In this document: in pieces, positions 266 through 41,795 of the stretch
Layout: every line of letters starts with the position of its first letter
How positions within the stretch are numbered: the first letter of the stretch is position 1
From: Escherichia phage JSSK01
DNA: 44,509 nucleotides
Sequence record: OQ442786
Direction: 5' to 3' (one strand)
Notes under the pieces: generated by a model
Database searches by the model: none
What the model saw: the letters and a program-made list of their open reading frames with translations, nothing else
Told to the model about the DNA's origin: nothing
Program-made: the position numbers and the translations under genes

Positions 266-286
266 TCTGTTTTCTGTAATGACTAG

Positions 287-315
287 TTGACTATTATCCT
301 CGACCCTATTATATT
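287..315 (+). promoter_or_regulatory. early promoter TTGACT-17-TATATT with AACGAGA leader box
   Basis: near-consensus hexamers with 17 bp spacer; leader shares ATCGA-AACGAGA box with promoters at ~40039 and ~41735. Confidence 0.55.
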
Positions 316-26892: not shown

Positions 26893-26896
26893 AACT

Positions 26897-26920
26897 AAGG
26901 CCCCAAACGGGGCCTTTTCT
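26897..26920. terminator. bidirectional terminator (AGGCCCC-AAAC-GGGGCCT, TTTTCT)
   Basis: between convergent tailspike and minus-strand replication genes. Confidence 0.7.
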
Positions 26921-27058
26921 CTACTCTTCCGATAACTTCTCCAGTACAAACGCCAGTTGCGCATTAGCGGCGTCTCTCTGTTGCCGTAGTCGCAGAACCT
27001 CCTCTTCGAGTTCCTTGATACGTTTTTGCAATGCCGGAATCGGGGCTATGATGTTCAT
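26921..27058 (-). CDS. hypothetical small coiled-coil protein (45 aa)
   Basis: not in track; ATGA coupling with Toprim gene stop; ends at terminator. Confidence 0.25.
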   Translation of the reverse strand: MNIIAPIPALQKRIKELEEEVLRLRQQRDAANAQLAFVLEKLSEE

Positions 27059-27570
27059 CTGGTAAATTTCCTCGCAAGATACGTTATTTCTTCTTCACAA
27101 AGTTCATCAAGGTCGTTAGATACAAATCCTCTGGTGAATGTTTTGCTGAACTTTAATCCAGCTTTATCATTGTCGCCAGCGCACACCCAGTCATACGGCA
27201 AAAGTGACATTTGCTGCCGTAGGTCTGTTGATATATTTGACCCCAGTGCGCTTACAGCATTGAACCCGCAATTCATCAAGGCTACGGCTTTGAATATGCT
27301 TTCGGTAACAAATACCACCCCGCTTTCCGGCAAATACTCAAGCCCCCATAAACACGGCCTTGTTGTTCTGGTAAAGTACCGCGCGTCTTTAGGGTTTTTA
27401 CAGTTCTTTTCGGCATGTGGTTTGTAATGCTGGTATCCGCGAAGCCTACCGTCAAACCCCCACAGGTAAAACGTAGCTACTCCAGGGGCTAAGACTACCC
27501 GGAGACGGTCGGCGTCAAACCCACGCGCCAGCAGATGCGCCTTAAGTAGTAACTCCTCACAATCCATCAT
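27055..27570 (-). CDS. Toprim-domain protein (DnaG-like primase core or nuclease)
   Basis: VFVTESIFKA (conserved Glu) and CAGDNDKAG (DxD) in Toprim-like order. Confidence 0.5.
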   Translation of the reverse strand: MMDCEELLLKAHLLARGFDADRLRVVLAPGVATFYLWGFDGRLRGYQHYKPHAEKNCKNPKDARYFTRTTRPCLWGLEYLPESGVVFVTESIFKAVALMNCGFNAVSALGSNISTDLRQQMSLLPYDWVCAGDNDKAGLKFSKTFTRGFVSNDLDELCEEEITYLARKFTR

Positions 27571-28991
27571 TTCTTACCTCGTCTCTTCATGTAATTAAGC
27601 AATTCTTCCTGTACTGATTTCTTCTCGTCTGTACGAGCGGCGACAACCTCGTCAAGAGTGTCTTTAGCAACGATGTGGTAGAGGAACACCGGGCGCTCGT
27701 GCCCTGCCTGCTTCTGGCGGACAGGGCCTATACGCTCAACCACCTGCAAATAGTGCTCAAGGTTCCAACCTTGTGAAATAAACGCCAGATGGTGACCGCC
27801 GTCCTGTAAATTCAAACCATGACCGGCTGACGCAGGGTGTACGCACAAGATTTCGATTTCACCTCGGTTCCACGCTTCCATCTGCTTATTACCCTTAGCA
27901 CCTTTGGCAAATGCCTGTGCCTGCGGGAATCGCTTAAGGATGCGCTCCAGTTCGTGCTTGAACTGATAGGCTACAAGCAACGGCGCACCCTGTAACTCCT
28001 CAACAATGGACTCAAGCGCATCAAGTTTAGTGTCGTGCACTTTCTCCCATTCTTTGGTTGCTTCGCCATCTGGTCCCGATACATACACGGCACCAGAAGC
28101 AATCTGCAGGCACTTCGACGTCTTCGCTGCCGCGTTAGCCGCTTCAACTTCTCCGCTCTCCAGTTCCGCGAATAACTTTTCCTCCATATCTATGTACGCC
28201 TGACGCGCTTTCTTCGGCAGGTCGATTTCAACCGGTACAATAATCGGCGCTTCACACCCGAACCACTCGGCGGCGTCAATCGTGAGGCTAATATCCTTCA
28301 TCTTCTGGTGAATTTCACTATCCGCGCCAGGGCGCGCATGATACTCCCGCGCCATAGCCGATTTGCCTTTCTGCACCGAGTTAAACCAGCGGTCGGTGAA
28401 TGCGGTGTATGAAGACCCCAGGCGCTCGCCAGCGTCGATAAACCAGTTCTGGCCCCACAAATCCTTGAGGCCGTTAGGTGATGGTGTACCTGTAAGGTTA
28501 ATGAAACGCTTAACCTTACCGAACGCCACTTTGCTTAGCGCCTTCGCCCGCTTGCTTCCGCCAGAACGGCTGCGGAAAGATTTAAGCTTCGTGCTTTCAT
28601 CGGCAACGATAACAGTAAAAGGCCAGTCGTCTTTTCCGTAGTAGTCAATCAGCCACTCAATAACTTCGTAGTTTGTGCAAACCACGTTAGCATCAGACTC
28701 CAGCGCCGCGATGCGGCGCTTCTCCGAACCAGTTGCATCGACTACACTCAGGCAAGGAAAGTTCCATTTCTCTTGTTCTGCGGGCCACGTGCCTGACGCA
28801 ACACGTAACGGGGCGAGGATTAACACGCGGTCGCCGTCATTAAGTTGGCCGTTGCGGAACAGTCGGTTTAATGTCCACAGTACGCTGCCAGTCTTCCCGG
28901 CACCCATGCTTGCCCAAATATTACAGCGATGGTGCCGCAACATGAACGAAGTCATGAGCTTCTGGTACTCGCGCCTTTGAAACTTAGACAT
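27567..28991 (-). CDS. SNF2/DEAD-like superfamily 2 helicase
   Basis: start reassigned to ATG 28991 (MSKFQ, GAGG SD); Walker A GAGKTGS, DEST box (VIVADEST), helicase C-terminal QVVERIGPVRQ. Confidence 0.85.
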   Translation of the reverse strand: MSKFQRREYQKLMTSFMLRHHRCNIWASMGAGKTGSVLWTLNRLFRNGQLNDGDRVLILAPLRVASGTWPAEQEKWNFPCLSVVDATGSEKRRIAALESDANVVCTNYEVIEWLIDYYGKDDWPFTVIVADESTKLKSFRSRSGGSKRAKALSKVAFGKVKRFINLTGTPSPNGLKDLWGQNWFIDAGERLGSSYTAFTDRWFNSVQKGKSAMAREYHARPGADSEIHQKMKDISLTIDAAEWFGCEAPIIVPVEIDLPKKARQAYIDMEEKLFAELESGEVEAANAAAKTSKCLQIASGAVYVSGPDGEATKEWEKVHDTKLDALESIVEELQGAPLLVAYQFKHELERILKRFPQAQAFAKGAKGNKQMEAWNRGEIEILCVHPASAGHGLNLQDGGHHLAFISQGWNLEHYLQVVERIGPVRQKQAGHERPVFLYHIVAKDTLDEVVAARTDEKKSVQEELLNYMKRRGKK

Positions 28992-29667
28992 GATTAGCCT
29001 CGTAAACTGCTTTCGCAAACCCTCTCGGAGTAAGGCTGCGGATTGTCTTTGTCCGCACTGATTTACCGCCAAGTTTGTTGTGCTGGTCGGAGTACCCATC
29101 AACAACGGCAACACATGATTTAACCGGCATAACAAAACCGTTACCCGCCCAAATACATGTCTTCTTAGGGTACGCGTCCCGTGGTTTTATGTATTCAGGG
29201 AACATTGGGTGTGTGTCGTTTTCCGGTAGATAGCCGCCGTATTCGTAGGGATTGAACGCGTAGTCGGGCCTACGCCATAAAGACGAAAGAACGCTAACAG
29301 GGTTCTCAATCATATACGGTACTTTGTACTTTTTAGCCAGACGCGCTGCCACTTTGCATGTAATCACAGCCTCTACCTGAAACGTTGGGTTCTTCTTACG
29401 CTTCGTTTCGAAATGCGCCGCGCCACTAACGGCTAAATCTGTGCAAGGAGGGAACGCAAAAATAATATCCGGCGAAACCTCGAAGTCGAACTTATTATCA
29501 ATCCACGCGTTTATATAGTGGATGTTCTCGTGTTCAACCTTTGCACCCAATCGTGCGTAGTCGCCGTGGTCAGCGCCATCGTAGTTGAAACAGTAGCAAG
29601 TATGGCCTGCTTCTGCCCACGGTTGGGCCATAAGGCCCGAACCGTCAAACAATGACCAAACAATCAT
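28984..29667 (-). CDS. DNA (cytosine-5)-methyltransferase-like protein (compact, atypical)
   Basis: motif I LFDGSG, motif IV PPCT (Cys ~75), motif VI ENP (~121) with spacing similar to C5-MTases; only 227 aa. Confidence 0.55.
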   Translation of the reverse strand: MIVWSLFDGSGLMAQPWAEAGHTCYCFNYDGADHGDYARLGAKVEHENIHYINAWIDNKFDFEVSPDIIFAFPPCTDLAVSGAAHFETKRKKNPTFQVEAVITCKVAARLAKKYKVPYMIENPVSVLSSLWRRPDYAFNPYEYGGYLPENDTHPMFPEYIKPRDAYPKKTCIWAGNGFVMPVKSCVAVVDGYSDQHNKLGGKSVRTKTIRSLTPRGFAKAVYEANHV

Positions 29668-29855
29668 TTCGCCACCAGAACTAACTCTTTACGCCCGAAC
29701 GCCGTAACGTTACCAGTTACATCTTCAATAACCAGTTTACCGTTCGACTCGACGAACACCGTATCAACGGCAACAGGGCGACGGGTCTTAACGTTGAAAA
29801 TCATGTCGCCCGGTACGATGTCGCGTGCTGGTTTGCGGTCATATTCGTGTTTCAT
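29664..29855 (-). CDS. hypothetical protein (63 aa)
   Basis: track ORF, ATGA-coupled to methyltransferase gene; downstream of conserved promoter cassette. Confidence 0.45.
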   Translation of the reverse strand: MKHEYDRKPARDIVPGDMIFNVKTRRPVAVDTVFVESNGKLVIEDVTGNVTAFGRKELVLVAK

Positions 29856-29885
29856 TTCTCAATTCCTTATATTGTTGGTGTGTGA

Positions 29886-30173
29886 CTAACTATAATAGCT
29901 CGCTATTAGGGTGTCAACCTGTTTAAACGAACCGACGACAAAAACATTCGCACCACGTTTACGCATCCGCTCGTGCTCGCGTAACTGGTGCGGGTCAGGC
30001 TTCGTGTTTTCGTCTTTCTTAACCTCGACGAACCAGACGATGCCGCCTGGGAGAATTGCCAGCAGGTCGGGAGCACCCGAACGTCCTTCGTAGGAGAGCT
30101 TACGAACGAGGCCCCCCAGGGCCTCGAATCGGTCTTTTGCGTATTTCTGTATTTTGCCCTCAGGAGTACTCAT
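29886..30173 (-). CDS. VRR-NUC domain nuclease
   Basis: GAPDLLAILPGGIVWFVEVKK matches the VRR-NUC signature (PD...EVK). Confidence 0.65.
   Translation of the reverse strand: MSTPEGKIQKYAKDRFEALGGLVRKLSYEGRSGAPDLLAILPGGIVWFVEVKKDENTKPDPHQLREHERMRKRGANVFVVGSFKQVDTLIASYYS
29889..29917 (-). promoter_or_regulatory. replication-module promoter cassette copy 1 (TTGACA-17-TATAGT)
   Basis: plus-strand text AACTATAATAGC...CTATT...GTGTCAAC; three near-identical copies. Confidence 0.55.
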
Positions 30174-30254
30174 CTATACACCCCTCACGTTTCGTGTGCT
30201 CAATCCCGCAGCGCGGACAGATTCGACAGTCTTCTTCATAGAACCAGTAGATTT

Positions 30255-30386
30255 TCATTCCAGCACCCATAGATAAATTGCGATGAACATTCCCAATATG
30301 GCAACCATCATTCCGTATTGGCCCTCGTGACAGTAGACACCGGCGGCGAATCCCGCCAGTAACGCGATAATCAGTTTACTTAGCAT
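30255..30386 (-). CDS. hypothetical small membrane peptide (43 aa)
   Basis: not in track; overlaps 3' end of polymerase gene; hydrophobic. Confidence 0.25.
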   Translation of the reverse strand: MLSKLIIALLAGFAAGVYCHEGQYGMMVAILGMFIAIYLWVLE

Positions 30387-32547
30387 AACGTTTTAACTCC
30401 TGACCTTCCGCTACAAGAGGGAACCCTTCGGCCCATTCTGGTAATTCGCACATCAACCGCTCAAGCTCTGCGACATTGTATTCTGGTAAATCCGGTGTCT
30501 CGCAGATAATTTCATCGTGAACATGGAGCACAATCGGGTAGCCGTTTGCCTCTACGTTCAGCAGCGCGTTAGCCAGCAAATCACGGCACAGCGCCTGAGT
30601 GCAGTTTTCCACCAGTTTACCAGAGTAGGTGTACTGGAAGCCCCACTGACGGGTTAACTGGTTCTCCCCCTGGTACTTGATGCGCACGTTAGTAGACACT
30701 TTTCCATCTTCGTCTGTCTCTTTCGACACGCTTAACCCGACACCTGGATAAGACATAACGCGGCCCGACGGCAACGTCATGCGCAACCACCAACCGGCGA
30801 CTTTGTTGCCGTTGTTGTCTGTCTCTACGTTGCGCGAAAACTTAACGCCGCGGGGACCTGCGGTGAACTCTTTACCGGGATTACGGATTGCTGCCATAGC
30901 TGCGTCTTCAATATCGCGCCAGAATTGGACTATTGCAGGATTAGCTTCCCGGTACATGCGCTTTAAAGCGTCACAGGTGCGCCAAACTTTCTTATCAAGG
31001 ATATATGAGGGTCGGTCATCTTTTTCACCAGGACGTGGTGGTCGCTTGGCTTCCTGAATACGCGCCCATTCGTATCCGCGTGCGGTAGCGGCCCAAATAT
31101 GGTCCGGGAATGTACCGTCTAAAGTGTTAGTCATGTCATTCAAATCAAGACCTAAGTTTTTAGCAAACGTGACGAAAGCACCGACGCCCCCCGCGTAGCC
31201 GAGTCCCAGAACCATTGCTTTGGCTATTTGTCTTTGGTCCTTTGTTACGGCTTCATATGCAACATTGAACACCGTTGATGCGAGTTTCTTATACACATCA
31301 ACCCCGTTTACAAATACTTCGATTAAATCGTCTTCACCCGCCAGCCACGCAAGACCGCGGCCTTCGACGTTAGAGTAATCGGCAACGACAAACTTATGCC
31401 CTGCTTCCGGTATGATGCAGCTGCGCACCGTCGATGCCGTTAGTTTGGCTACATCGAAACGGCGGTGCGCACGGCCTTTAAGTAACGCAGAAATGCCTTT
31501 ATCCAGTTCGTCGTCGTGATAGTACCCGCGAGCCAGGTTCTGCGGCTGGAAGCCTTTACCCGCAAATCGTAACGTACGTTTAGCTCCACCATACTGGATG
31601 CAACCGCGACGTCGGTCGTCCGACGAGCGGCCTAACAGCAGCGGGTTATATTTCGTGGACGCTGTTGACGCGGCCCCGAGGCGCATTTCGATAATCATCC
31701 GGGCGTCGTCCGGTAAATCATCATCTGCCAACAGGTCGTTAAGCGTCGACTTCTGTGCATTGTGTATGCGGTGCGCGGGCGCAAGTTCACGCAGAATCGG
31801 AAGGAAGTCTTTACCGGTAAGCGAGCCGCCGTATTTACGTTGAGCTTCTTCCTGTAACTGTGCCTTGTGCTTCTCTACGGCTTCAATCGCGGCTTCCGCC
31901 AGTGCGACGTCAACCTTAAATCCGCGGTCGTTGATTAACTGGTCAAGTTCCAGTACACGGTCTTCGAACTCGGAGTTACCCCAACGCGGCAGCTTATGGA
32001 AGACTTCACGCATCGCAGTGATGTCGCTCACGGCGTACCTGATGAACATCGCCCACTCGTCAGGGTGAGTTTCTGCGGTGTAGCGGCGGATTTTGTAGTT
32101 CTTCGGCGTCGGTTTAGAGAAACGCTTAATCAGAGCCTTGCCGCGTTTATCTTTCGCGTTGTCTGCAGACACGCCCAGCACTTCGCACAGCGCATCAAGA
32201 GAACCCGGCAGCGCGTGACGGAACGCCCAAATCATAGTATCAATGGTGTTACTTACCGGAATATCAAAGTCCCAGCAGTGTTTCATGATTAGGCGATCGA
32301 AAAGTCCACCGTTGTGCCACACCATCCTGATGCGGCTGTTGGGCTTAACAAGGCGGCGCAGTGCGCGGTGTAAATCCCCCGGCATGTCGCTGCCGTCGGT
32401 GCAATCCCATACCTGCACAGGCTCATCGTCAAAAGCATAGGTACAGATTAGCACTTCGGTTGACGGGTGTTCGGCGTAAGCGTAAGAACCGACTTTCTTC
32501 AAATCGGCTTCTGAGAATGTTTCAAAGTCTAAGAACAGGTAACTCAT
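30376..32547 (-). CDS. family A DNA polymerase with 3'-5' exonuclease domain
   Basis: Exo I motif LFLDFETFS; motif A DYSNVEGR; motif B RQIAKAMVLGLGYAGG; motif C HVHDE. Confidence 0.9.
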   Translation of the reverse strand: MSYLFLDFETFSEADLKKVGSYAYAEHPSTEVLICTYAFDDEPVQVWDCTDGSDMPGDLHRALRRLVKPNSRIRMVWHNGGLFDRLIMKHCWDFDIPVSNTIDTMIWAFRHALPGSLDALCEVLGVSADNAKDKRGKALIKRFSKPTPKNYKIRRYTAETHPDEWAMFIRYAVSDITAMREVFHKLPRWGNSEFEDRVLELDQLINDRGFKVDVALAEAAIEAVEKHKAQLQEEAQRKYGGSLTGKDFLPILRELAPAHRIHNAQKSTLNDLLADDDLPDDARMIIEMRLGAASTASTKYNPLLLGRSSDDRRRGCIQYGGAKRTLRFAGKGFQPQNLARGYYHDDELDKGISALLKGRAHRRFDVAKLTASTVRSCIIPEAGHKFVVADYSNVEGRGLAWLAGEDDLIEVFVNGVDVYKKLASTVFNVAYEAVTKDQRQIAKAMVLGLGYAGGVGAFVTFAKNLGLDLNDMTNTLDGTFPDHIWAATARGYEWARIQEAKRPPRPGEKDDRPSYILDKKVWRTCDALKRMYREANPAIVQFWRDIEDAAMAAIRNPGKEFTAGPRGVKFSRNVETDNNGNKVAGWWLRMTLPSGRVMSYPGVGLSVSKETDEDGKVSTNVRIKYQGENQLTRQWGFQYTYSGKLVENCTQALCRDLLANALLNVEANGYPIVLHVHDEIICETPDLPEYNVAELERLMCELPEWAEGFPLVAEGQELKRYAK

Positions 32548-32564
32548 TATTTTTGACCCCTAGT

Positions 32565-32587
32565 AAAAAGGCCCAATGAAGGGCCTT
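32565..32587 (-). terminator. attenuator hairpin between SSB and polymerase genes
   Basis: GGCCC stem with T-run on the minus strand. Confidence 0.4.
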
Positions 32588-32606
32588 AGTTAAATTGATT
32601 CAGATA

Positions 32607-33233
32607 TTAGCGGCGGCGACGTTCGCGGCGCGGTGCTTCATCTTCTTCGTCGTCTTCCAGGTCATTGACGCTCGCAGCGACTTTAGAACCGCCGAACGCT
32701 TTGCCTTCACCGACGTACTTAATCGCCAGCAGGTTAACCCCGAGAACTTTATATTTCTGGCTGAACCAGATTTCGACGCTTACGTTAGCGACACAGCCAC
32801 TGTAAACCTGTTCGCCTTCAATCTGTTCGCCGTCTACGTTGAAGTCCTGCTCCACCTGAGTCTCACCTTTTTTAGAGGTTACAATCAGCGGCTGCTTCTG
32901 CGCCTTCGCTTTGAAGTAGAAGCCTTCTGGGAAGTCTTCAAACGGGTTATCACGCTCAGCAATGTCTTTAATCGCGCATTTATCCATGTGCTTACCTTCG
33001 CCGTAGTTGGACTTCATCCATTTCTCGGCAGCAGCTGCGCCTAACGCTTCCTCAACCACAGCGTAAACAGTGTCGTAGAGTGCATCGATTTGAGCGTGGT
33101 CAGGCGGCAGGATGATAGTCGCGCTATACTGGCCTTTAGTGATGGAGCCATCATCGTTTTCACGGTCTTTTTCTCGTTCGAATACGTTAACCCATGCAGT
33201 GTTTACTTTACGCAGATTCAGTTTAATTCCCAT
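32607..33233 (-). CDS. single-stranded DNA-binding protein (gp2.5-like / DUF2815-like, putative)
   Basis: 208 aa, acidic DLEDDEEDE C-terminal tail; between PD-(D/E)XK nuclease and DNA polymerase. Confidence 0.45.
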   Translation of the reverse strand: MGIKLNLRKVNTAWVNVFEREKDRENDDGSITKGQYSATIILPPDHAQIDALYDTVYAVVEEALGAAAAEKWMKSNYGEGKHMDKCAIKDIAERDNPFEDFPEGFYFKAKAQKQPLIVTSKKGETQVEQDFNVDGEQIEGEQVYSGCVANVSVEIWFSQKYKVLGVNLLAIKYVGEGKAFGGSKVAASVNDLEDDEEDEAPRRERRRR

Positions 33234-33287
33234 CTTAATTTCTCGCTTTTCAGTTTACTCCTGGAAGCTGCCAGGCCAGTGATTAGA

Positions 33288-33316
33288 ACTATAATAGCTA
33301 ACTATTCAGGTGTCAA
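33288..33316 (-). promoter_or_regulatory. replication-module promoter cassette copy 2 (TTGACA-17-TATAGT)
   Basis: plus-strand text GAACTATAATAGCTAACTATTCAGGTGTCAACAC. Confidence 0.55.
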
Positions 33317-33320
33317 CACT

Positions 33321-34562
33321 TTATTCTAAATCTTTTTCACTAACCCGATTCCACTCAGGACGTTTGTCGTTTGCCGTTGCGACACATGGCGCTCCTGGCT
33401 TACGGGTAATGAAGTCTTTCAGTTCATCTTCCGGTATGACTTTAACAGCTTCGGTTGGCGTCATGAGCACTTGCTTCATTAGCGCTATGCCATACTTGCC
33501 AGCAACTTTCTCCGCGTCTTTCCACGCACGATTACCTGGGCGTCCTTCTACCAGTTTGTACCCCGGCACTTTCTTACCGGAATGCAGCGCGGCAGCCATA
33601 GCTTTCTCAACCTTGTCGATGTGCTGGCGCAACAACGGCAACTTCTCATACTCAGCTACAAGTTGCTCCGTCGTCAGTTCCAGCGCAAAGTCGTCCTCCA
33701 GTTCTTCCGCCAGTACAGCGTTAACGGTTTTTGTACGCGCGGCGCATTGTTCAGAGAACCGACACCACTGACAACCATCGACAGACGGCTTAAAGTCAGA
33801 TGCTTTCAGGTTCTTCTTGCCGCGGGAATAGGCATCGAGCGCTAACAGTGCTCGTTTTTGTGCAAACTTAGCGAACAGTTCAAGGCCTTCAACCGAGATG
33901 TCCCACTCCGACGCACCGCCAGCGCACGGCTGGAAAATTACCAGACGAACCACGGTGATGTTATAACGCCTCTTGAGTCGGCGATAAACACCGAGAGCGT
34001 AAAGCATAAGCTGCTTGTTTTCTTTCGCTTCGACACGATGCCGTCCTGTTTTCAGGTCGCCGATAATGAGCATATGCTCGTCAGTGTTCGCCAGTTCCTG
34101 AACGGCAACAAGGTCAGCGGTTCCGAACGTCTCAACGCCTTCGTAACCCGGATGCAATACCTCAGTAAGATTTACCCGCATTTCCAGCTTGGCGTAAGTC
34201 GCTACGTCGATAATCGCTTTGCAGTAGTCGGTGTACTTGCGCACCTGCTCAATCATGTCAGCCGTAATCAGTACCGCGCCTTTCATCTGGCTAATTAGCG
34301 CCTTAATCTGGCCTTTACCCTCGTCCAGCACGTAAGCGCCGACTTCACGCTCCAACGGCAACGCAGTGCCGCGTATATAGGCGTTGAGATGGACCTCAGC
34401 TATGGTGTGCATGGCGGTTCCTGATACAGCGGCTTTACCCGACGTGTTAGGGATATCTTTTTCACACGCCAGCGACGCAGCGCATGACAGCCACTTTTTA
34501 GCGCCTGACGGTGACAGTAAGGCGTGTACATCATTATTGCCGCCTCGTTCTTTTAGTTTCAT
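33321..34562 (-). CDS. PD-(D/E)XK exonuclease (DUF2800 / Cas4-RecB-like) with C-terminal Cys cluster
   Basis: start reassigned to ATG 34562 (MKLKE); N-terminal LLSPSGAKKWLSCAASL typical of DUF2800; C-terminal CQWCRFSEQC. Confidence 0.6.
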   Translation of the reverse strand: MKLKERGGNNDVHALLSPSGAKKWLSCAASLACEKDIPNTSGKAAVSGTAMHTIAEVHLNAYIRGTALPLEREVGAYVLDEGKGQIKALISQMKGAVLITADMIEQVRKYTDYCKAIIDVATYAKLEMRVNLTEVLHPGYEGVETFGTADLVAVQELANTDEHMLIIGDLKTGRHRVEAKENKQLMLYALGVYRRLKRRYNITVVRLVIFQPCAGGASEWDISVEGLELFAKFAQKRALLALDAYSRGKKNLKASDFKPSVDGCQWCRFSEQCAARTKTVNAVLAEELEDDFALELTTEQLVAEYEKLPLLRQHIDKVEKAMAAALHSGKKVPGYKLVEGRPGNRAWKDAEKVAGKYGIALMKQVLMTPTEAVKVIPEDELKDFITRKPGAPCVATANDKRPEWNRVSEKDLE

Positions 34563-34859
34563 GCTCTTAAACTCCCACCCCATTTAACTTTACGCGTTTT
34601 GCGCTTGTAGGCGCACGTGTCACCGCTACGGTTGAATATAATCAGCCAAGTCGAGTTGCTTACTCGAAAAGGCTGGTGACATTTAATAAAGAGAAGTCGC
34701 GCTTTACGGTTCGTCATTCTGCAATCTCCACAATACGCGCATTAGTGAAACTGCGTGCGAAGCCGAATGTGTAGAAGATGTACTGGGCTTCGTCCAAACG
34801 TGCGTAGCGGCTGTGTTCCTGGTCTTTACCGTCTATTTCTACAATTATCGCGTACCTTG

Positions 34860-35132
34860 TCATACCCTGCTCTCCCACTGGTCGATTAAATGTCGCGTCT
34901 TATGTTCGCAGTGCATAGCCCACCCATACATCGACTCAAAGACATAAAAGTCTGGCTTGGCGAATGTCGTGCGCTTAATCTGTGACACGTGACGACCTAT
35001 ATCTTTAGGCCGCGGTACTTTGCCTAAGTAAGCCATCTCTTCCATCTGGTGCGCCCCGGACGGCGCACGCAACAGCCATAGTGCCTCTGTGTTGTCCCGC
35101 CTGTCGACGGCGCGGTAGAGTTGGTAAATCAT
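34860..35132 (-). CDS. hypothetical protein (90 aa)
   Basis: track ORF in coupled minus-strand gene chain. Confidence 0.45.
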   Translation of the reverse strand: MIYQLYRAVDRRDNTEALWLLRAPSGAHQMEEMAYLGKVPRPKDIGRHVSQIKRTTFAKPDFYVFESMYGWAMHCEHKTRHLIDQWESRV

Positions 35133-35332
35133 TTCCTTACCCTCGCAGAATTAATCCACGTGAAAACATCGTCAATAGAAAAATCGCCGTCGAAAACCTT
35201 CTCAACTTTGCTGGCCTTCTTGACCGTCGTAGGGTGTTTGTTGTCTACCGCCTGAAATACGTAAACCAAATCATTTTCAGCGACAACGCTGCCAGAAATC
35301 ATAAGACCACTTTTCTTAGCTAAAATAGCCAT
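35129..35332 (-). CDS. hypothetical protein (67 aa)
   Basis: track ORF, ATGA-coupled. Confidence 0.45.
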   Translation of the reverse strand: MAILAKKSGLMISGSVVAENDLVYVFQAVDNKHPTTVKKASKVEKVFDGDFSIDDVFTWINSARVRK

Positions 35333-35343
35333 AATTCCGACCC

Positions 35344-35559
35344 TCAGTAGTACGGCGCAAATTCACCTTTAACGGCGGGACGAATTGTATGTACCGCCGT
35401 TTTATCGGTTGGGTACATGTCCGCCCAATATTCGCCAGCGGCATAGTCAAGAGTCCCGCGCCACGCACCATTCAAAACAAAGAATTGCTGACAACCAACA
35501 TATGAGTCACTTATTTCTACAACTATTTGTTCGTTTATTACTTTGTATACGTTACTCAT
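35344..35559 (-). CDS. hypothetical protein (71 aa)
   Basis: track ORF. Confidence 0.45.
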   Translation of the reverse strand: MSNVYKVINEQIVVEISDSYVGCQQFFVLNGAWRGTLDYAAGEYWADMYPTDKTAVHTIRPAVKGEFAPYY

Positions 35560-35602
35560 TATTACGACCCTCAGTTAAAGCGGCCCGAAGGCCGCCAGAT
35601 AA

Positions 35603-36127
35603 TTATTCTTCTTCGAAATACTTGTTCTTGATTGCTGTCAAGCGTTCCAGGTATTCAGCCAGGTCTTCGTCTTTAATCGCTGCAATCTTCATTTTCTTAC
35701 CAGTGAACTCTTCCAGCAGTTCATCAGAATCGTCGCACGCGGCATCGCTAGGACCTTCATTAATTGCATCGTCGATGGCCTGAATCTGGTCACGAAGAGA
35801 CTGGTAATCGACCTCTTCTTTCTCTTCTTCCGGTTCTGGCGTAGGCTCCTCTACTTTAGGTTTACGCGGCTTGCGTTTCGGCTTCTCTTCTTCTGCTGGT
35901 TTGGTGTCAACGACGTCTTCACCTTCGACCTCAATGTCTCTTACCGCGTCGAACGCTTCTTTAACCACATGAGCTACCGTCTTTTCTTCGACCGTGATTT
36001 CTTTTGTTGCAACAGTAGGCTTTATTGTTGCGGATTCAGCAATGACTACTTGTTTCGAACTATTCGCGGCAATCAGTTCATGTGCAACTACGAAACGTTC
36101 CAGCAATACTAAGAATTTCTCTAACAT
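35603..36127 (-). CDS. highly acidic protein (174 aa), unknown function
   Basis: long Glu/Asp-rich stretches (EVEGEDVVD..., PEPEEEKEEVD...). Confidence 0.5.
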   Translation of the reverse strand: MLEKFLVLLERFVVAHELIAANSSKQVVIAESATIKPTVATKEITVEEKTVAHVVKEAFDAVRDIEVEGEDVVDTKPAEEEKPKRKPRKPKVEEPTPEPEEEKEEVDYQSLRDQIQAIDDAINEGPSDAACDDSDELLEEFTGKKMKIAAIKDEDLAEYLERLTAIKNKYFEEE

Positions 36128-36151
36128 TTGTTTCTCTCCTGTTTGTGTAAG

Positions 36152-36379
36152 TTACTCACCGTCGCCTTCAGTAAGGCTATCGTCTATTAGTTCAAATTTA
36201 CCGTTTGAGTGTTGAATAGCTTCTTGCCCGCAATGGTCACAGACAACAAGTTTATCGAACCCATCAAACTCATCCCCTACTACGCAAGAAAGTACAAATT
36301 TATGTTTTGTGCACACTTCTTGCGGAGCGCCGAAAATTGCTCGAAAACCTTTAGCTATGGCCCCAGTGATTGTGTTCAT
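36152..36379 (-). CDS. zinc-ribbon-like small protein
   Basis: CxxC pairs (CTKH...C and CDHCG). Confidence 0.5.
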   Translation of the reverse strand: MNTITGAIAKGFRAIFGAPQEVCTKHKFVLSCVVGDEFDGFDKLVVCDHCGQEAIQHSNGKFELIDDSLTEGDGE

Positions 36380-36407
36380 ATCTGCCCCTCTCGTTTGGTA
36401 TGGGCTA

Positions 36408-36436
36408 ACTATAATAGCGAACTATTCACATGTCAA
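36408..36436 (-). promoter_or_regulatory. replication-module promoter cassette copy 3 (TTGACA-17-TATAGT)
   Basis: plus-strand text TAACTATAATAGCGAACTATTCACATGTCAATGG. Confidence 0.55.
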
Positions 36437-36500
36437 TGGGCTTTTCTAAAATAATTAATATGGTACTATTCACATATCAACTGACTAAGGAGTAACTGAC

Positions 36501-36716
36501 ATGCAACCATCTGAACTAGGCATCCGTGTAGAGCAACGCCGTAAAGAACTCGGTATCTCCCAGCGCCGTCTGGCTGTTCTGGCCGGCGTTTCCCAGGGCG
36601 CGATTAACCAGCTTGCACTCGGGGTAACTCAGGACGTACGCCCGGCAACGCTGTTTAAACTGGCGGAAGTGCTGGAAGTAGACGCCAAGTGGCTGGCGCT
36701 AGGTGAAGGGGCGTAA
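36501..36716 (+). CDS. XRE-family HTH transcriptional regulator (Cro/CI-like)
   Basis: ISQRRLAVLAGVSQGAINQL is a classic HTH_XRE signature; AAGGAG SD; stop codon lies in terminator loop. Confidence 0.7.
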   Translation: MQPSELGIRVEQRRKELGISQRRLAVLAGVSQGAINQLALGVTQDVRPATLFKLAEVLEVDAKWLALGEGA

Positions 36717-36731
36717 CGCCCCTTTCTTTTT
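36708..36731 (+). terminator. rho-independent terminator (GGGGCG-TAA-CGCCCC, TTTCTTTTT)
   Basis: read from sequence. Confidence 0.6.
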
Positions 36732-36733
36732 AC

Positions 36734-38956
36734 CTATTCCAAATCCTCCTCTGTCACCACCAGCATCTCATTTGGTTCGTATAGTGTCTTCGGCCTTAAT
36801 CTATCACCTATTCTTTCGGGTATACGATATGTTCTCGGTACTACTTCGCCGTTAGCATCGCAACCAAGCATTAGTTCTCCATCTTTCAACATTTTATCAA
36901 GATGGGTGTTAGTCACAGAGAAGTCACCGGAACGAGCCACTATCTGCTGCTGAGTAAAACCGCGACCTGTGTCATCTGACTGTTGCAGGTCTTCCAGTGC
37001 CGAAAGTATTGACTCCTTCCTTACTTCATCCCTGCCGCGTTTAACTTCTTCCTTTACTTTTTGCTTACCTTCTTTCGTCAACCCTTCTTCCCGCTCTTTC
37101 TCCTCGTCAGTTTTGAACGGCTCGAAACCCCACGGCATCAACACAAGCGCCTTGTGTGGTTCAGGCAGGTCCAGGTTTACGATTGTGCCGTATTCCTCTG
37201 TGCTACCCAGGAACTCAACCGCTCGGTATTCTTTAGGCGGCGGCGCTTCACGGAACTGTACCGACTCCAGCACCATGCCAACCGTCTTCTGCTGAGGCCC
37301 GTGCTTGAATTTCGAGTGATATACGTTTATCTGACGGTCGGTTGCACGTTCGATTGTCAGTTCCACGTCAACACCCGCATACAGCGCCCCACTGCCGCGT
37401 GCTTTCTTTCCACCCTTCGGCGTATGGTGGACAACGCCTACTGCGGCTTTAGTTGCATCGCGTACTTCTTTCAGAATGGCGATAACTTTACCCATGCCGA
37501 TTGCTGTTGATGAACTGTTCTCGTCGAACTTATCAATCGTCAGTGCCAGGGTCTGGTTAAGGGTGTCGAACGCAACCATGCCAATTGGCTCGTCGCCAGC
37601 AGTTTCGCGCATTAACTTAATCAGGCTTTTAAGTTTGCCGACTTCGCCCATATCGATGACGTGTACATAATCTTTACCTTCCCCGCCATATTTAGCCGCT
37701 AGTGCATCAATACGGGTGCGTGTAGCTGCGCCACCCTCACCATCAATATAGAAATGGTGGCAACGCTGGGTATCCGCCCCCGCAAACCTGTACCCGGCGG
37801 CGCTGAGGCACATCATCCCCAGCGTATAGAACGATTTGTACGTGCCAGATTCCCCGACGATATCCCAGATACAATCCGACGGCATGTACCCCTCAACGAC
37901 GAAATCAGCCTTTACCGGCTCCGGTAACTCGTCCTCCTCTGAGTCCTCGTCGTCTTCCAGGTCGTCGAGGCTGCAAGTTACTGGGTCCTCGTTCTCTGTG
38001 CGGTGTAGTTCTTCAATCTCTTCTTCCGGTAAATCAGGCAGAGCCGCACGAATGCTGTTAATGCTGATAGGTTGCTTATCTATGTTAAGCTCGTCGGGTA
38101 GGCCACACATACGCAGGGCCAAATGCTGCCTACGGTTAAGCTCGGTGCAAGCGCCGTTGTTTGTATGCTGGCAGACAAAGCGCACTTCTTTACCGTCGAG
38201 CATTATGCTGGTGGAGCCCTTGCCTGTATGCAGATGTTCGTTAGGGCATGGCACTTCGTACCCGCGCCCGGAAGATAAAGCGTCAAGGCCAAGCTCGGCT
38301 TCGCAGAAGTGTGCTATATCCGCGTTAAGCCCATGCTCATCAGCGGCAAGTGTTTTAGCCTCACGCTTACGCAACCCCATCTCTTCGGCTTTCTTGATGT
38401 ACCGCTCAGCACGGATAACACGCCCTTCTGTAACCGTTATCTTCGACTCTTTATGCGGCAGGTAGATAAGGCGGTTGCCGTCTTCTGTGCAGTGGTCACG
38501 CAACGCTTCGTCTATTTCTAACTCTGCACAAATAGCACGTTGCACCATCCACGCGTCGTTAGAGTTAAACGGCGTGCGAGCTGGAACCAGAACGCGGAAA
38601 GCGTAATCTCCGTTTTTACATGCGTGCTGATGCGATGCCGTTGTGTGCAGAATATTGAAGAACGGCGCGTTCTTGAATTTGCGTGTCAGGTCGCGGTACT
38701 GAGTACGGTTGAGATGGTCGAAATCGAACTTAACCACACTGTCTTCCAGGATAGCGTTTTTACGGCGACCACCAACAGGCGCAATAGCTTTCTGTTTAAT
38801 CTTGGCAGCGTCGTACTCTTCCTTAGTCCATGACGGGTCCACGGATAAACGCTTCGATGTATCGCAGACATACTCGACAAACTGCTCCAGCGGCATTTCA
38901 CGCGCTACAGGGTTTTTATCGAATGTGTTACGCAGCGTTGCAAAAACAATATTCAT
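36734..38956 (-). CDS. DNA primase/helicase (AEP-type primase-like N-terminal region + RecA-like ATPase)
   Basis: Walker A GESGTYKS, Walker B-like MVAFDTLNQ, sensor VVHHTPKGG; N-terminal DxD (FDFDHL) and His-rich block suggestive of AEP primase. Confidence 0.75.
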   Translation of the reverse strand: MNIVFATLRNTFDKNPVAREMPLEQFVEYVCDTSKRLSVDPSWTKEEYDAAKIKQKAIAPVGGRRKNAILEDSVVKFDFDHLNRTQYRDLTRKFKNAPFFNILHTTASHQHACKNGDYAFRVLVPARTPFNSNDAWMVQRAICAELEIDEALRDHCTEDGNRLIYLPHKESKITVTEGRVIRAERYIKKAEEMGLRKREAKTLAADEHGLNADIAHFCEAELGLDALSSGRGYEVPCPNEHLHTGKGSTSIMLDGKEVRFVCQHTNNGACTELNRRQHLALRMCGLPDELNIDKQPISINSIRAALPDLPEEEIEELHRTENEDPVTCSLDDLEDDEDSEEDELPEPVKADFVVEGYMPSDCIWDIVGESGTYKSFYTLGMMCLSAAGYRFAGADTQRCHHFYIDGEGGAATRTRIDALAAKYGGEGKDYVHVIDMGEVGKLKSLIKLMRETAGDEPIGMVAFDTLNQTLALTIDKFDENSSSTAIGMGKVIAILKEVRDATKAAVGVVHHTPKGGKKARGSGALYAGVDVELTIERATDRQINVYHSKFKHGPQQKTVGMVLESVQFREAPPPKEYRAVEFLGSTEEYGTIVNLDLPEPHKALVLMPWGFEPFKTDEEKEREEGLTKEGKQKVKEEVKRGRDEVRKESILSALEDLQQSDDTGRGFTQQQIVARSGDFSVTNTHLDKMLKDGELMLGCDANGEVVPRTYRIPERIGDRLRPKTLYEPNEMLVVTEEDLE

Positions 38957-39150
38957 TTCTTTTTCTCCGCACGTTCTAAGGCTTCCTGCATACGGCGCAT
39001 TGCGCGGTTCATCTTTACCGGCGCGAAGAAATCGGCGCCGTGTTTCTGTCGGCGTAGCTGTGGAACTATTAACTTTGTCATTGTATAATCCTTATGCTTA
39101 CTTTGATGGTTTGTACTTTAGCCCCGACGTTCTAGCGTTGGGGTTTCTTT

Positions 39151-39441
39151 TTACCGTTTAGCCAACCCTTCCAGCAAATTTTTATACTCTTCAAAATATT
39201 CCTCGACCAAATCATCGCCGAAATAGAAGTCGATATACTCGAGATTATCTCTTACGTTAAGCGATGCCGACATGGTGCTTAGTTGGCGTAAGCTAATTAG
39301 CTTCATTTCTGTTTCTACGCAGAAAGGCCGGTAGGTATCAAGATGGCAAGAGATATTGAAGCATAAAGCGAACTCTCCTGCCACGGAGTGAACCATATAC
39401 ACTTCGTTTTCTGCTTTATTGTGGAAAATTACGCCTTTCAT
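39151..39441 (-). CDS. hypothetical protein (96 aa)
   Basis: track ORF, ATGA-coupled to upstream HTH gene. Confidence 0.45.
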   Translation of the reverse strand: MKGVIFHNKAENEVYMVHSVAGEFALCFNISCHLDTYRPFCVETEMKLISLRQLSTMSASLNVRDNLEYIDFYFGDDLVEEYFEEYKNLLEGLAKR

Positions 39442-39620
39442 TTCACGTTCTCCTTAATCCATGCTTCGACTTTATTACGGTCAAATGTTCCCGGTAAACG
39501 GCGGCCCATAATCTTAATACAGCAGTCAGGGAATTTGCCGCTGCGCAACCAGTTATTAATTGTCTGACGTGTCACCCCGATACGTTCAGCTACTTCATTC
39601 TGCGTCATATAATGCGACAT
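39438..39620 (-). CDS. small HTH DNA-binding protein (AlpA/excisionase-like fold)
   Basis: start reassigned to ATG 39620 (AGGAGAT SD); MTQNEVAERIGVTRQTINNWLRSGKFP is HTH-like; first gene of minus-strand operon. Confidence 0.55.
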   Translation of the reverse strand: MSHYMTQNEVAERIGVTRQTINNWLRSGKFPDCCIKIMGRRLPGTFDRNKVEAWIKENVK

Positions 39621-39651
39621 TTTTATATCTCCTGTTTGTTTGGTGAAACTG

Positions 39652-39680
39652 AGTATAGGATAGCGGGAATGTAAAAGCAA
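39652..39680 (-). promoter_or_regulatory. candidate leftward promoter TTGCTT-17-TATACT
   Basis: read on minus strand upstream of HTH gene. Confidence 0.4.
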
Positions 39681-39717
39681 CCAATCTCTGTAATATTTAA
39701 TCTTTACAAAAATGTTA

Positions 39718-39747: not shown

Positions 39748-39753
39748 GGTTTT

Positions 39754-40038: not shown

Positions 40039-40067
40039 TTGCACACCCCAACATAATAGGTTACTAT
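40039..40067 (+). promoter_or_regulatory. early promoter TTGCAC-17-TACTATTCA with AACGAGACA leader box
   Basis: near-identical to promoter at ~41735. Confidence 0.55.
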
Positions 40068-40101
40068 TCACTTATCGAAACGAGACATAAGGAATTTAGA
40101 G

Positions 40102-41734: not shown

Positions 41735-41763
41735 TTGCACACCGGGATAGAATAGGCTACTAT
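41735..41763 (+). promoter_or_regulatory. early promoter TTGCAC-17-TACTATTCA with AACGAGACA leader box
   Basis: near-identical to promoter at ~40039. Confidence 0.55.
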
Positions 41764-41795
41764 TCATTTACACAAACGAGACAGAGGAAAACGAA

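What the first reader, a model, noticed from the sequence alone, without database searches (positions are those of the whole stretch)
29885..36440. Three near-identical ~30-nt promoter cassettes punctuating the minus-strand replication module
At ~29889-29917, ~33288-33316 and ~36408-36436 the plus strand carries AACTATAATAGC-NNN-CTATT-N3-TGTCAA, which on the minus strand is TTGACA-17-TATAGT with a largely conserved spacer. Each copy sits just upstream of a gene start (the 63-aa ORF, SSB, zinc-ribbon protein). Conservation beyond the hexamers suggests a dedicated regulator site or recent cassette duplication.
Basis: seen in the sequence. Interest (0 to 1): 0.5.

Follow-up and report, generated by a model that had tools for sequence, protein, structure and literature searches.

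The report
Operator-bearing promoters of a Kagunavirus phage
The three repeats are strong host-type promoters of a virulent E. coli phage, each carrying a 14-bp palindromic protein-binding site that at least four other promoters in the genome share, so this is most likely an ordinary Cro-style repression circuit and not a new kind of element.

Summary
TTGACA-17-TATAGT with a shared spacer occurs on the minus strand at 29889-29917, 33288-33316 and 36408-36436; none is expected by chance.

The window is a Kagunavirus (Guernseyvirinae) genome. The conserved spacer is a dyad, AATAG-N4-CTATT. The same dyad sits in four more sigma70-type promoters outside or between the reported copies: 16814, 36457, 40055 and 41751. 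There it lies 6 bp closer to the -10.

In 20-35 related genomes the two half-sites are almost invariant, while the central 4 bp and the flanks drift. Jerseyvirus has the dyad at the same gene junctions. Cornellvirus keeps the promoters but not the dyad. So this is an old, selected operator regulon and not a recent duplication.

The most likely binder is the phage's 71-aa 434-Cro-like XRE protein (36501-36716). Its own promoter carries the weakest site. It would repress by blocking RNA polymerase. This assignment is inferred, not shown, and the recognition helix differs in Jerseyvirus.

A published paper listed the motif as "phage RNA polymerase promoters". No such polymerase is annotated or found. 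Verdict: new member of a known kind, moderate interest.

The parts
29889..29917 (-). Cassette C1, a class A promoter: -35 TTGACA (29917-29912), 17-bp spacer holding the dyad AATAGCGAGCTATT (29907-29894), -10 TATAGT (29894-29889). Predicted start of transcription is near 29882. It drives the 63-aa ORF (29855), then the methyltransferase, SNF2 helicase and Toprim protein. It lies inside the last 10 codons of the VRR-NUC ORF.
   Evidence: orthologues
33288..33316 (-). Cassette C2, a class A promoter: TTGACA, then cctg, then the dyad AATAGTTAGCTATT (33306-33293), then -10 TATAGT. Predicted start near 33281. It drives the ssDNA-binding protein (33233), DNA polymerase and VRR-NUC.
36408..36436 (-). 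Cassette C3, a class A promoter: TTGACA, then tgtg, then the dyad AATAGTTCGCTATT (36426-36413), then -10 TATAGT. Predicted start near 36401. It drives the 75-aa Cys-rich ORF (36379), the 174-aa ORF and onward to the exonuclease.
36457..36470 (+). Site S5: the weakest dyad, AATATGGTACTATT, in the promoter of the XRE gene. The G-to-T change in the left half-site creates an extended -10, TGgTACTAT (36461-36469). It lies 44 bp from the C3 dyad, in the divergent region between the two genes. 32 of 33 related contigs have exactly this sequence.
16815..16843 (-). Site S1, a class B promoter: -35 TTGCGC (16843-16838), 10 nt, dyad AATAGGGTACTATT (16827-16814) containing -10 TACTAT (16820-16815). It drives the Imm / metallophosphatase / Rha-ANT operon (ATG 16799).
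40039..40068 (+). Site S6, a class B promoter: -35 TTGCAC (40039-40044), 10 nt, dyad AATAGGTTACTATT (40055-40068) containing -10 TACTAT (40062-40067). It drives the plus-strand small early genes from 40102.
   Evidence: (family D3)
41735..41764 (+). Site S7, a class B promoter: -35 TTGCAC (41735-41740), 10 variable nt, dyad AATAGGCTACTATT (41751-41764) containing -10 TACTAT (41758-41763). It drives 41796 onward (Gp54-like protein, small genes, lysis genes).
   Evidence: (family D3)
36501..36716 (+). The 71-aa XRE/HTH_3 protein, closest in sequence to phage 434 Cro. It is the favoured binder of the dyad. It is transcribed against its neighbours and ends at the hairpin 36705-36725.
39438..39620 (-). 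The 60-aa HTH_17 (excisionase / AlpA-like) protein, the alternative binder. Its own promoter, TTGCTT-17-TATACT (39680-39652), has no dyad.
282..295 (+). A degenerate dyad, ACTAGTTGACTATT, overlapping the -35 of a TTGACT-17-TATATT promoter that follows a T-run. It is conserved in Kagunavirus and Jerseyvirus and may be an eighth, weak site.

Best explanation
The three cassettes are strong promoters read by the host sigma70 RNA polymerase. Each has a 14-bp operator, AATAG-N4-CTATT, built into its 17-bp spacer at about -25 to -12. The same operator is built into at least four other phage promoters of a second design (TTGCAC-N10-AATAGGnTACTATT), where it spans about -19 to -6 and contains the -10 hexamer. 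Together these sites form one regulon covering the replication module, the early small genes, the Imm/Rha operon and the regulator's own gene.

The operator is most likely bound by a dimer of the phage's 71-aa 434-Cro-like XRE protein. Bound inside the core promoter, the dimer would exclude RNA polymerase. As the protein accumulates, early and middle transcription would be turned down, and its own promoter, which has the weakest site, would be throttled last. This is the Cro paradigm.

Shown here: the sequences, their symmetry, their positions in promoters, the selective conservation of the half-sites, and the family of the XRE protein. Inferred: that a protein binds, which protein it is, and that the effect is repression.
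For: 1. The three cassettes are exact at the stated coordinates, with 0 expected by chance. The dyad has 6 exact copies in the window, plus the near-copy S5 with one mismatch. With up to 1 mismatch there are 12 matches, against 1.08 expected.

2. AATAG is the most frequent exact 5-N4-5 palindrome half-site in the window and in phage Bas70; the other frequent palindromes are GC-rich, terminator-like hairpins.

3. Every one of the seven strong copies lies inside a promoter-like core, 29-55 nt upstream of a start codon.

4. I located orthologous sites by their flanks alone in 20-35 Kagunavirus contigs. Half-site entropy was 0.00-0.06 bits at five of the six informative sites, and 0.19-0.24 at C2, where one placement looks out of register. 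The central 4 bp gave 0.06-0.49 bits and the flanks 0.11-0.68 bits. At S7 the 10 nt between the -35 and the dyad vary freely while the dyad does not.

5. The dyad sits in different registers relative to the -10: class A, class B, and a third register in Jerseyvirus wksl3. It is therefore a separate element and not part of what RNA polymerase reads.

6. Cornellvirus-type phages keep sigma70 promoters at the junctions examined (upstream of the SSB gene and in the XRE divergent region) but lack the dyad, so RNA polymerase does not need it.

7. The XRE protein matches HTH_3 (E=2e-12). Its closest solved relative by sequence is the 71-aa 434 Cro (E=2e-6). The predicted five-helix fold matches 434 Cro and repressor, P22 C2, SinR and R-M controller proteins. 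From textbook knowledge, these are dimers that bind dyad operators, and the 434 operator is likewise 14 bp with conserved outer and variable central base pairs.

8. The XRE helix-turn-helix region (SQRR...GVSQGAINQLALGVT) is invariant in homologues down to 77% identity, matching the invariant operator.

9. The XRE promoter itself carries a conserved weaker site, 44 bp from the C3 site.

10. The repeat and palindrome scans found no other repeated operator-like family (one search covered 26800-44509; one search counted exact palindromes over the whole window).
Against: No binding, transcript-start or reporter data exist for any of these sites.

The Jerseyvirus XRE is only 49% identical, and its recognition helix differs (SQSLITH against SQGAINQ). 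Yet Jerseyvirus uses essentially the same AATAG-N4-CTATT core. The only consistent change is at the base just outside the half-site: T in 100% of Jerseyvirus half-sites, against G 38% / T 52% in Kagunavirus.

Cornellvirus has an XRE homologue whose recognition helix resembles the Jerseyvirus one, but no dyad was found there.

The HTH_17 protein has the same distribution across genera as the dyad.

The one RNA-seq study of a close relative is coarse. It lists a gene I take to be the XRE (annotated 'specific DNA binding') as 'middle' and a helix-turn-helix gene I take to be the HTH_17 as 'early' (PMC12645636).
Confidence: 0.5

Rival explanations
1. The dyad is bound by the 60-aa HTH_17 (excisionase / AlpA-like) protein at 39438-39620. 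This protein is made early from a promoter with no dyad and would act as a general repressor or modulator, in the manner of the Apl and Cox proteins.
For: Among the five genomes compared, it is present in Kagunavirus and Jerseyvirus (84% identical) and absent from the two Cornellvirus-type phages, which also lack the dyad. Its own promoter, TTGCTT-17-TATACT, has no dyad, so it could be made before its targets are shut off. A helix-turn-helix gene that I take to be this one is among four 'early' genes in RNA-seq of a close relative.
Against: In contigs L037-L039 its recognition helix and wing are heavily substituted (VTRQTINNW to VSPMTLNRW; MGRRLPG to NGYRQPG), yet the dyads and their flanks are unchanged. 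The co-occurrence with the dyad amounts to a single phylogenetic event. From general knowledge, small HTH_17 / excisionase / BldC-type proteins lack a dimerisation domain and usually bind direct repeats head to tail, not 14-bp dyads. No Pfam match beyond generic HTH families was found.
Confidence: 0.15
2. No dedicated regulator exists. The shared spacer is inherited from duplication of one ancestral promoter and is kept because spacer sequence tunes promoter strength.
For: All sites look like descendants of one cassette (families D1-D3). Cornellvirus promoters at the same junctions still show remnants such as TGAAT...CTATTATA. At orthologous sites the whole core promoter is conserved, not only the dyad.
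Against: RNA polymerase constraints do not predict dyad symmetry. The half-sites are more conserved than the centre and flanks. In class B the left half-site lies outside both hexamers yet is invariant, while the adjacent 10 nt vary. The same dyad occurs in three registers. The duplication predates the split of the two genera.
Confidence: 0.1
3. A host transcription factor shared by E. coli and Salmonella binds the dyad, so the phage ties its promoters to host physiology.
For: The same core is used by phages of both hosts even though the phage XRE proteins have diverged. From memory only and not tested: there is a loose resemblance, xTAG-N4-CTAx, to SlyA/RovA-type sites.
Against: No host factor with this exact consensus was identified. 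Cornellviruses infect Salmonella without the dyad. The base flanking the half-site differs by phage genus, which is easier to explain by a phage-encoded reader.
Confidence: 0.08
4. The dyad is a loading site for a processive antiterminator, like the lambda Q-binding element or the AlpA-binding element of Pseudomonas aeruginosa, both of which also lie between -35 and -10.
For: In class A the element lies between -35 and -10, as those two elements do (PMC7969949). An 'AlpA-like' gene is present.
Against: P. aeruginosa AlpA is an eight-helix protein of more than 140 residues whose N-terminal part forms a ring in the RNA exit channel; one molecule binds a non-palindromic site and needs a sigma-dependent pause (PMC9371919). 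The phage protein is 60 aa and consists of the HTH only. No terminator-like hairpin lies between the cassettes and their first genes, and reading the transcribed leaders shows no consistent -10-like pause element. In class B the dyad overlaps the -10.
Confidence: 0.03
5. The motifs are promoters for a phage-encoded RNA polymerase, as stated for phage fBC-Eco01 on the basis of the PHIRE program.
For: PHIRE finds them as a repeated 20-mer. The paper lists seven sites with consensus tgAATAGTa-ccTATTat-T (PMC9825357).
Against: No RNA polymerase gene is annotated in the closely related curated genome Bas70, and none turned up in the roughly 40 non-structural window ORFs I scanned; the large ORFs were not scanned and rest on the Bas70 annotation. 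The sites are palindromic and sit inside sigma70-type -35/-10 frames.
Confidence: 0.01

Closest known systems
Phage 434 / lambda / P22 Cro (and CI) with their operators
   Same: A small HTH_3 protein of Cro size (71 aa, like 434 Cro). A 14-bp dyad operator with conserved outer and variable central base pairs. Operators placed inside early promoters, including the divergent region next to the regulator's own gene.
   Different: No CI partner, no integrase and no three-part OR/OL switch. The sites are spread over at least 7 promoters around a virulent genome instead of two operator clusters. The half-site sequence (AATAG) is unrelated to ACAA (434) or TTAAG (P22). Binding is not demonstrated.
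Operators placed in the -35/-10 spacer (P22 Arc at Pant; engineered lac operator in T7 A1-type promoters, Lanzer and Bujard 1988; both recalled from memory)
   Same: The operator occupies the 17-bp spacer of a strong promoter, a position known to give efficient repression by competing with RNA polymerase.
   Different: A different protein family would be involved. Here the same operator is also used in a second register that overlaps the -10.
Restriction-modification controller (C) proteins and their C-boxes
   Same: HTH_3 dimers of 70-80 aa. C.AhdI and C.BclI are among the best structural matches to the XRE model. Their dyad sites lie in promoters and give autoregulation.
   Different: C-boxes are paired sites controlling one operon, with both activation and repression. 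No restriction-modification context exists here.
PHIRE 'phage promoter' motif of Kagunavirus fBC-Eco01 (PMC9825357)
   Same: The same sequence family (tgAATAGTa-ccTATTat-T). Its sites PP5, PP6 and PP7 correspond to S5, S6 and S7 here.
   Different: That paper assigns the motif to a phage RNA polymerase. None of its seven listed motif sequences matches the three TTGACA cassettes, and it does not mention the dyad symmetry or the sigma70 frame.
Lambda Q-binding element / P. aeruginosa AlpA-binding element
   Same: Both are elements located between -35 and -10.
   Different: Those elements are not palindromic. They need a large antiterminator protein, a sigma-dependent pause and a downstream terminator, none of which is seen here.

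Membership tests
sigma70-dependent bacterial promoter | -35 hexamer close to TTGACA and -10 hexamer close to TATAAT (A at position 2, T at position 6), separated by 16-18 bp | tested here: met
   The three cassettes score 11 of 12 with a 17-bp spacer. Class B sites read TTGCAC or TTGCGC, 17 bp, TACTAT.
sigma70-dependent bacterial promoter | Located upstream of a gene with a ribosome-binding site; orthologous position conserved | tested here: met
   Sites lie 29-55 nt upstream of start codons. The same junctions are used in Kagunavirus and Jerseyvirus contigs.
sigma70-dependent bacterial promoter | Transcripts start about 7 nt downstream of the -10 hexamer | not testable with these tools
   No transcript-start data are available. 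The only RNA-seq paper found (PMC12645636) gives gene-level profiles only.
434 Cro-type HTH_3 repressor with operator | Regulator is a small HTH_3 protein with the five-helix Cro/CI DNA-binding fold | tested here: met
   Pfam HTH_3, E=2e-12. 434 Cro (1zug) at E=2e-6 over residues 6-68. AlphaFold2 model with pLDDT 80 and five helices; Foldseek TM-scores of 0.70-0.76 to 434 Cro and repressor and P22 C2.
434 Cro-type HTH_3 repressor with operator | Dyad-symmetric operator of about 14-18 bp with conserved outer and variable central base pairs | tested here: met
   AATAG-N4-CTATT. Half-site entropy 0.00-0.06 at five of six informative sites (0.19-0.24 at C2), against 0.06-0.49 for the centre.
434 Cro-type HTH_3 repressor with operator | Operators overlap core promoters, including the regulator's own | tested here: met
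   All seven sites lie within about -25 to -6. S5 lies in the XRE promoter.
434 Cro-type HTH_3 repressor with operator | The protein binds these sites specifically and represses | not testable with these tools
   This needs gel shift or footprinting and reporter assays. The covariation evidence is ambiguous.
434 Cro-type HTH_3 repressor with operator | Part of a CI/Cro bistable lysogeny switch | tested here: not met
   No CI-like second repressor or integrase is annotated in the Bas70 or wksl3 genomes, and none turned up in the roughly 40 non-structural window ORFs scanned. This feature is not needed for the claim that it works like Cro.
Q / P. aeruginosa AlpA-type antiterminator loading element | Protein with an N-terminal RNA-exit-channel ring plus a C-terminal HTH (AlpA has more than 140 aa and 8 helices) | tested here: not met
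   The phage protein is 60 aa, and HTH_17 covers residues 4-58. AlpA architecture is taken from PMC9371919.
Q / P. aeruginosa AlpA-type antiterminator loading element | Sigma-dependent pause element and an intrinsic terminator downstream of the promoter | tested here: not met
   No terminator-like hairpin lies between the cassettes and their first genes. No shared -10-like sequence is seen in the leaders.
Single-subunit phage RNA polymerase promoter | The phage encodes its own RNA polymerase | tested here: not met
   None is annotated among the 83 features of the Bas70 genome, and none turned up in the roughly 40 non-structural window ORFs scanned. The large ORFs were not scanned.
MerR-type spacer operator | Over-long 19-20-bp spacer that the regulator remodels | tested here: not met
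   The spacers are the optimal 17 bp.

The most novel reading that the evidence does not exclude
One 14-bp operator, placed in three different registers inside at least seven sigma70 promoters, forms a genome-wide switch that times the whole infection of strictly virulent Guernseyvirinae. In this reading its reader is not the Cro-like XRE but the very small HTH_17 protein or an unrecognised phage or host factor. That would be a spacer-binding global regulator of a kind not yet described.
Probability: 0.15. Interest if true: 0.55.

Novelty: new member of a known kind. Interest (0 to 1): 0.35.

Why it matters
Kagunaviruses and Jerseyviruses are among the phages most often isolated and proposed for therapy and food biocontrol; more than 450 database records match this region. 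Their transcriptional programme is essentially unknown. This analysis gives a concrete regulatory map that can be tested: seven promoters, one operator and two candidate regulators. It corrects a published assignment of the motif to a phage RNA polymerase that is not annotated or found. It shows that a 'strictly lytic' phage family keeps a Cro-like circuit. It also points to a compact, very strong and probably repressible promoter/operator pair that could be used as a genetic part. It does not reveal a new class of mechanism.

Tried and rejected
1. Recent duplication. Rejected: the copies are orthologous across two genera.

2. Phage RNA polymerase promoters. Rejected: no such gene is annotated or found.

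3. Rha/ANT protein (14406-15077) as binder. Rejected: Bas70 lacks it but has eight dyads.

4. The 63-aa ORF after C1 as binder. It is 95-98% conserved and has the same distribution as the dyad. Rejected: the AlphaFold2 model (pLDDT 90) is an all-beta barrel, and its best structural matches by TM-score are eIF5A and EF-P domain I, with Tudor domains further down. This is not an operator-binding fold.

5. The Cys-rich 75-aa ORF after C3 as binder. Rejected: absent from Jerseyvirus.

6. Antiterminator loading site. Rejected on protein size and the absence of a pause element or terminator.

7. Covariation tests to choose between XRE and HTH_17. Variation of HTH_17 within Kagunavirus does not track the motif. 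Divergence of XRE between genera comes with only a flank-base change. The result is suggestive but not decisive.

8. More distant XRE homologues with genomic context. The word-indexed protein search found only close relatives. The bacterial genome scan gave 7 loci; the homologues I examined have other palindromes of their own upstream, and a 434-like viral contig has the 434 operators. None was informative for AATAG.

9. An equivalent dyad in Cornellvirus. None was found.

10. One literature search was wasted on an over-broad term.

11. An RNA hairpin role was not pursued. The dyad lies upstream of the predicted transcript starts and would form only a 5-bp AU-rich stem.

Full report
**What the window is.** Megablast of 29000-37000 finds 452 phage records. 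The best are Escherichia phages BUCT825, XY1 and the BASEL phages Bas70-76, at 90-95% identity; these are Kagunaviruses of the subfamily Guernseyvirinae. Hundreds of Salmonella Jerseyviruses match at 80-90%. The gene order matches the curated Bas70 genome: plus-strand packaging, head and tail genes; a short minus-strand island (14406-16799); a minus-strand replication module (26921-39620); and plus-strand small early genes and lysis genes (40102 onward).

**The observation.** On the minus strand the three sites read as follows.
- TTGACAccctAATAGCGAGCTATTATAGT
- TTGACAcctgAATAGTTAGCTATTATAGT
- TTGACAtgtgAATAGTTCGCTATTATAGT

A pattern search with up to three mismatches returns exactly these three, and none in 100 shuffles. 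They are three of the four best sigma70 matches in 26000-44509, each 11 of 12 with a 17-bp spacer, and the only ones with an exact TTGACA. They also form the top repeat families. Each lies 29-55 nt upstream of a start codon.

**What the conserved spacer is.** The conserved part of the spacer is a dyad, AATAG-N4-CTATT.
- The dyad has 6 exact copies in the window. With up to one mismatch there are 12 matches, against 1.08 expected.
- The longer consensus TGAATAGTAnCCTATTATnT finds six sites against 0.03 expected.
- Counting all exact 5-N4-5 palindromes shows AATAG to be the most frequent half-site in the window and in Bas70. The other frequent palindromes are GC-rich, terminator-like hairpins.
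- A position-weight matrix trained on other genomes separates ten window sites (16-24 bits) from everything else (8 bits or less). Only the six exact sites score above the highest shuffle (19.1 bits), and orthologues of the weaker sites were in the training set.

**The four extra strong sites.** These are at 16814, 36457, 40055 and 41751. Read on the strand that faces the adjacent gene, they show a second promoter design: TTGCAC or TTGCGC, then 10 nt, then AATAGGnTACTATT.
- TACTAT is the -10 hexamer, again 17 bp from the -35, and a Shine-Dalgarno sequence and ATG follow 33-38 nt downstream.
- In this class B design the dyad spans about -19 to -6. In the cassettes (class A) it spans about -25 to -12.
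- In Jerseyvirus wksl3, the orthologue of the 16814 site uses a third register: TTGCAT-N7-AATAGTGTCCTATTAT, with TATTAT as the -10.
- The site at 36457 lies in the promoter of the XRE gene. Its left half-site is AATAT. That G-to-T change creates an extended -10 (TGgTACTAT) at a promoter with no recognisable -35.
- 32 of 33 related contigs have exactly this weakened site, and it lies 44 bp from the C3 dyad.

**Is the dyad itself under selection?** I located orthologous sites in 20-35 Kagunavirus contigs by their flanks only, so that the dyad was not used to find them.
- Half-site entropy was 0.00-0.06 bits at five of the six informative sites (0.19-0.24 at C2, where one placement looks out of register).
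- The four central base pairs gave 0.06-0.49 bits.
- The 30-nt flanks gave 0.11-0.68 bits.

At S7 the ten nucleotides between the -35 and the dyad vary freely (actgggggag, acttatatag, actaagatag and others). The left half-site next to them belongs to neither hexamer, yet it does not vary. Conserved outer halves, a free centre, dyad symmetry and a variable register relative to the polymerase's own elements are the signature of a site for a dimeric DNA-binding protein. They are not the signature of a polymerase contact or of shared ancestry alone.

**Distribution.**
- All 35 Kagunavirus contigs fetched from IMG/VR carry the dyad at 3.3-5.4 sites per 10 kb, and the two complete Kagunavirus genomes at about 2.7, against 0-0.6 in unrelated contigs.
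- Jerseyviruses carry it at the same gene junctions. There the base just outside each half-site is T in 100% of 40 half-sites, against G 38% / T 52% in Kagunavirus.
- Cornellvirus FSL SP-031 and the related vB_SenTO17 keep sigma70 promoters at the junctions examined (upstream of the SSB gene and in the XRE divergent region), with remnants such as TGAAT...CTATTATA. They have no dyad.
- The regulon therefore predates the Kagunavirus/Jerseyvirus split, and 'recent duplication' is excluded.

**Who binds?** Pfam and PHROGs scans of about 40 small and non-structural ORFs find four proteins with DNA-binding domains. These are the XRE protein (36501-36716), an HTH_17 excisionase/AlpA-like protein (39438-39620), a Rha+ANT protein (14406-15077) and a weak NinH-like match.
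- Rha is absent from Bas70, which has eight dyads.
- The NinH-like protein is also present in Cornellvirus.
- The 63-aa ORF after C1 is 95-98% identical across genera and absent from Cornellvirus. It folds (pLDDT 90) into an all-beta barrel. Its best structural matches by TM-score are eIF5A and EF-P domain I, with Tudor domains further down, so it is not a plausible operator reader.

That leaves XRE and HTH_17.

For XRE:
- It matches HTH_3, and its closest solved relative by sequence is the 71-aa 434 Cro (E=2e-6).
- Its predicted five-helix fold matches 434 Cro and repressor, P22 C2, SinR and C-proteins. From textbook knowledge these are dimers on dyad operators, and the 434 operator has the same 14-bp plan.
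- Its helix-turn-helix is invariant in homologues down to 77% identity.
- Its own promoter carries the weakest site.
- The repeat and palindrome scans found no other repeated operator-like family.

Against XRE:
- The Jerseyvirus protein is 49% identical and has a different recognition helix, yet the operator core is the same.
- Cornellvirus has an XRE but no dyad.

For HTH_17:
- Among the five genomes compared it has the same distribution as the dyad.
- Its promoter has no dyad.
- A helix-turn-helix gene that I take to be this one is 'early' in RNA-seq of a close relative.

Against HTH_17:
- Its recognition helix and wing are heavily substituted in L037-L039 with no change in the sites.
- From general knowledge, this family usually binds direct repeats without forming dimers.

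I put XRE at about 0.5 and HTH_17 at about 0.15.

**Mechanism.**
- Class A promoters are near-consensus and need no activator.
- A protein dimer bound at -25 to -12, or at -19 to -6, would compete with RNA polymerase. Repression is therefore the natural reading.
- The regulator's own, weakest site would be occupied last, giving autoregulation.
- This is the Cro paradigm, spread over at least seven promoters of a virulent phage.

The alternative of an antiterminator loading site has a precedent in position: the lambda Q-binding element and the P. aeruginosa AlpA-binding element both lie between -35 and -10. The other requirements are not met. AlpA is an eight-helix protein of more than 140 residues that needs a pause element and a terminator. 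The phage protein is 60 aa, and neither a terminator nor a pause element follows the cassettes.

- Those hits include sites matching S5, S6 and S7 here. None of the seven listed sequences matches the three TTGACA cassettes.
- No RNA polymerase gene is annotated in Bas70, so that assignment is not tenable.
- I found no paper in the searched library that describes the dyad, its sigma70 frame or a link to the XRE protein.

**Verdict.** The system is a new member of a well-known kind, repressor operators embedded in phage early promoters. The identity of the binder is unresolved. Interest is moderate.

Noticed in passing
window 39652-40050: An ORF-poor stretch of about 300 nt lies between the HTH_17 gene and site S6. 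It holds a plus-strand promoter-like site (TTGAAA-18-TATAAT, 39718-39747), a strong hairpin (GGGCAGGCTTAAGCCTGCCC, 39947-39966) and a long imperfect hairpin near 39787-39818. Much of it is conserved in Jerseyvirus wksl3. It could be a small RNA or a replication or packaging element.
   Followed up: no
window 7695-7710: A perfect 16-bp palindrome, AACTATTCGAATAGTT. It is made of the same AATAG half-sites in the opposite (everted) order and abuts the -35 of a TTGACT-17-TAAGCT promoter-like site. It is conserved in Bas70.
   Followed up: partly
window 282-330: TTGACT-17-TATATT promoter-like site just after a T-run. It has a degenerate dyad (ACTAGTTGACTATT) over its -35 and the same CCCTATTATATT as site S1. 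It is conserved in Kagunavirus and Jerseyvirus and may be the promoter of the operon that leads into the terminase genes.
   Followed up: partly
window 41796-41981: The first gene after site S7 (61 aa) matches Pfam PF25180, 'Phage antiviral trigger protein Gp54' (E=3e-25).
   Followed up: no
window 29886-29917: Cassette C1 lies inside the last 10 codons of the VRR-NUC ORF (...VDTLIASYYS*). In Jerseyvirus the protein tail changes (VDKLIEHYYI*) while the dyad positions are kept.
   Followed up: partly
window 14406-16799: The minus-strand island driven by S1 encodes a superinfection-immunity (Imm) protein, a metallophosphatase and a Rha+ANT protein. Its content varies between close relatives; Bas70 lacks Rha and Imm.
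   Followed up: partly
window 29664-29855: This 63-aa ORF is 95-98% identical between Kagunavirus and Jerseyvirus, far more conserved than the DNA polymerase (76%). It is absent from Cornellvirus and is predicted to be an all-beta barrel resembling eIF5A / EF-P domain I. Its function is unknown.
   Followed up: yes
L003 25438, 26069, 26596; L004 395, 648, 1278: The Cornellvirus-type phages, which lack the AATAG dyad, have three copies of a different palindrome, GAATAA-N-TTATTC, near the spanin and scaffold genes.
   Followed up: no
L059 (Taishania pollutisoli scaffold22, NZ_JACVEL010000022.1): This scaffold, filed as bacterial, carries a Jerseyvirus-type XRE gene and its promoter region. It is probably phage contamination of the assembly.
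   Followed up: no
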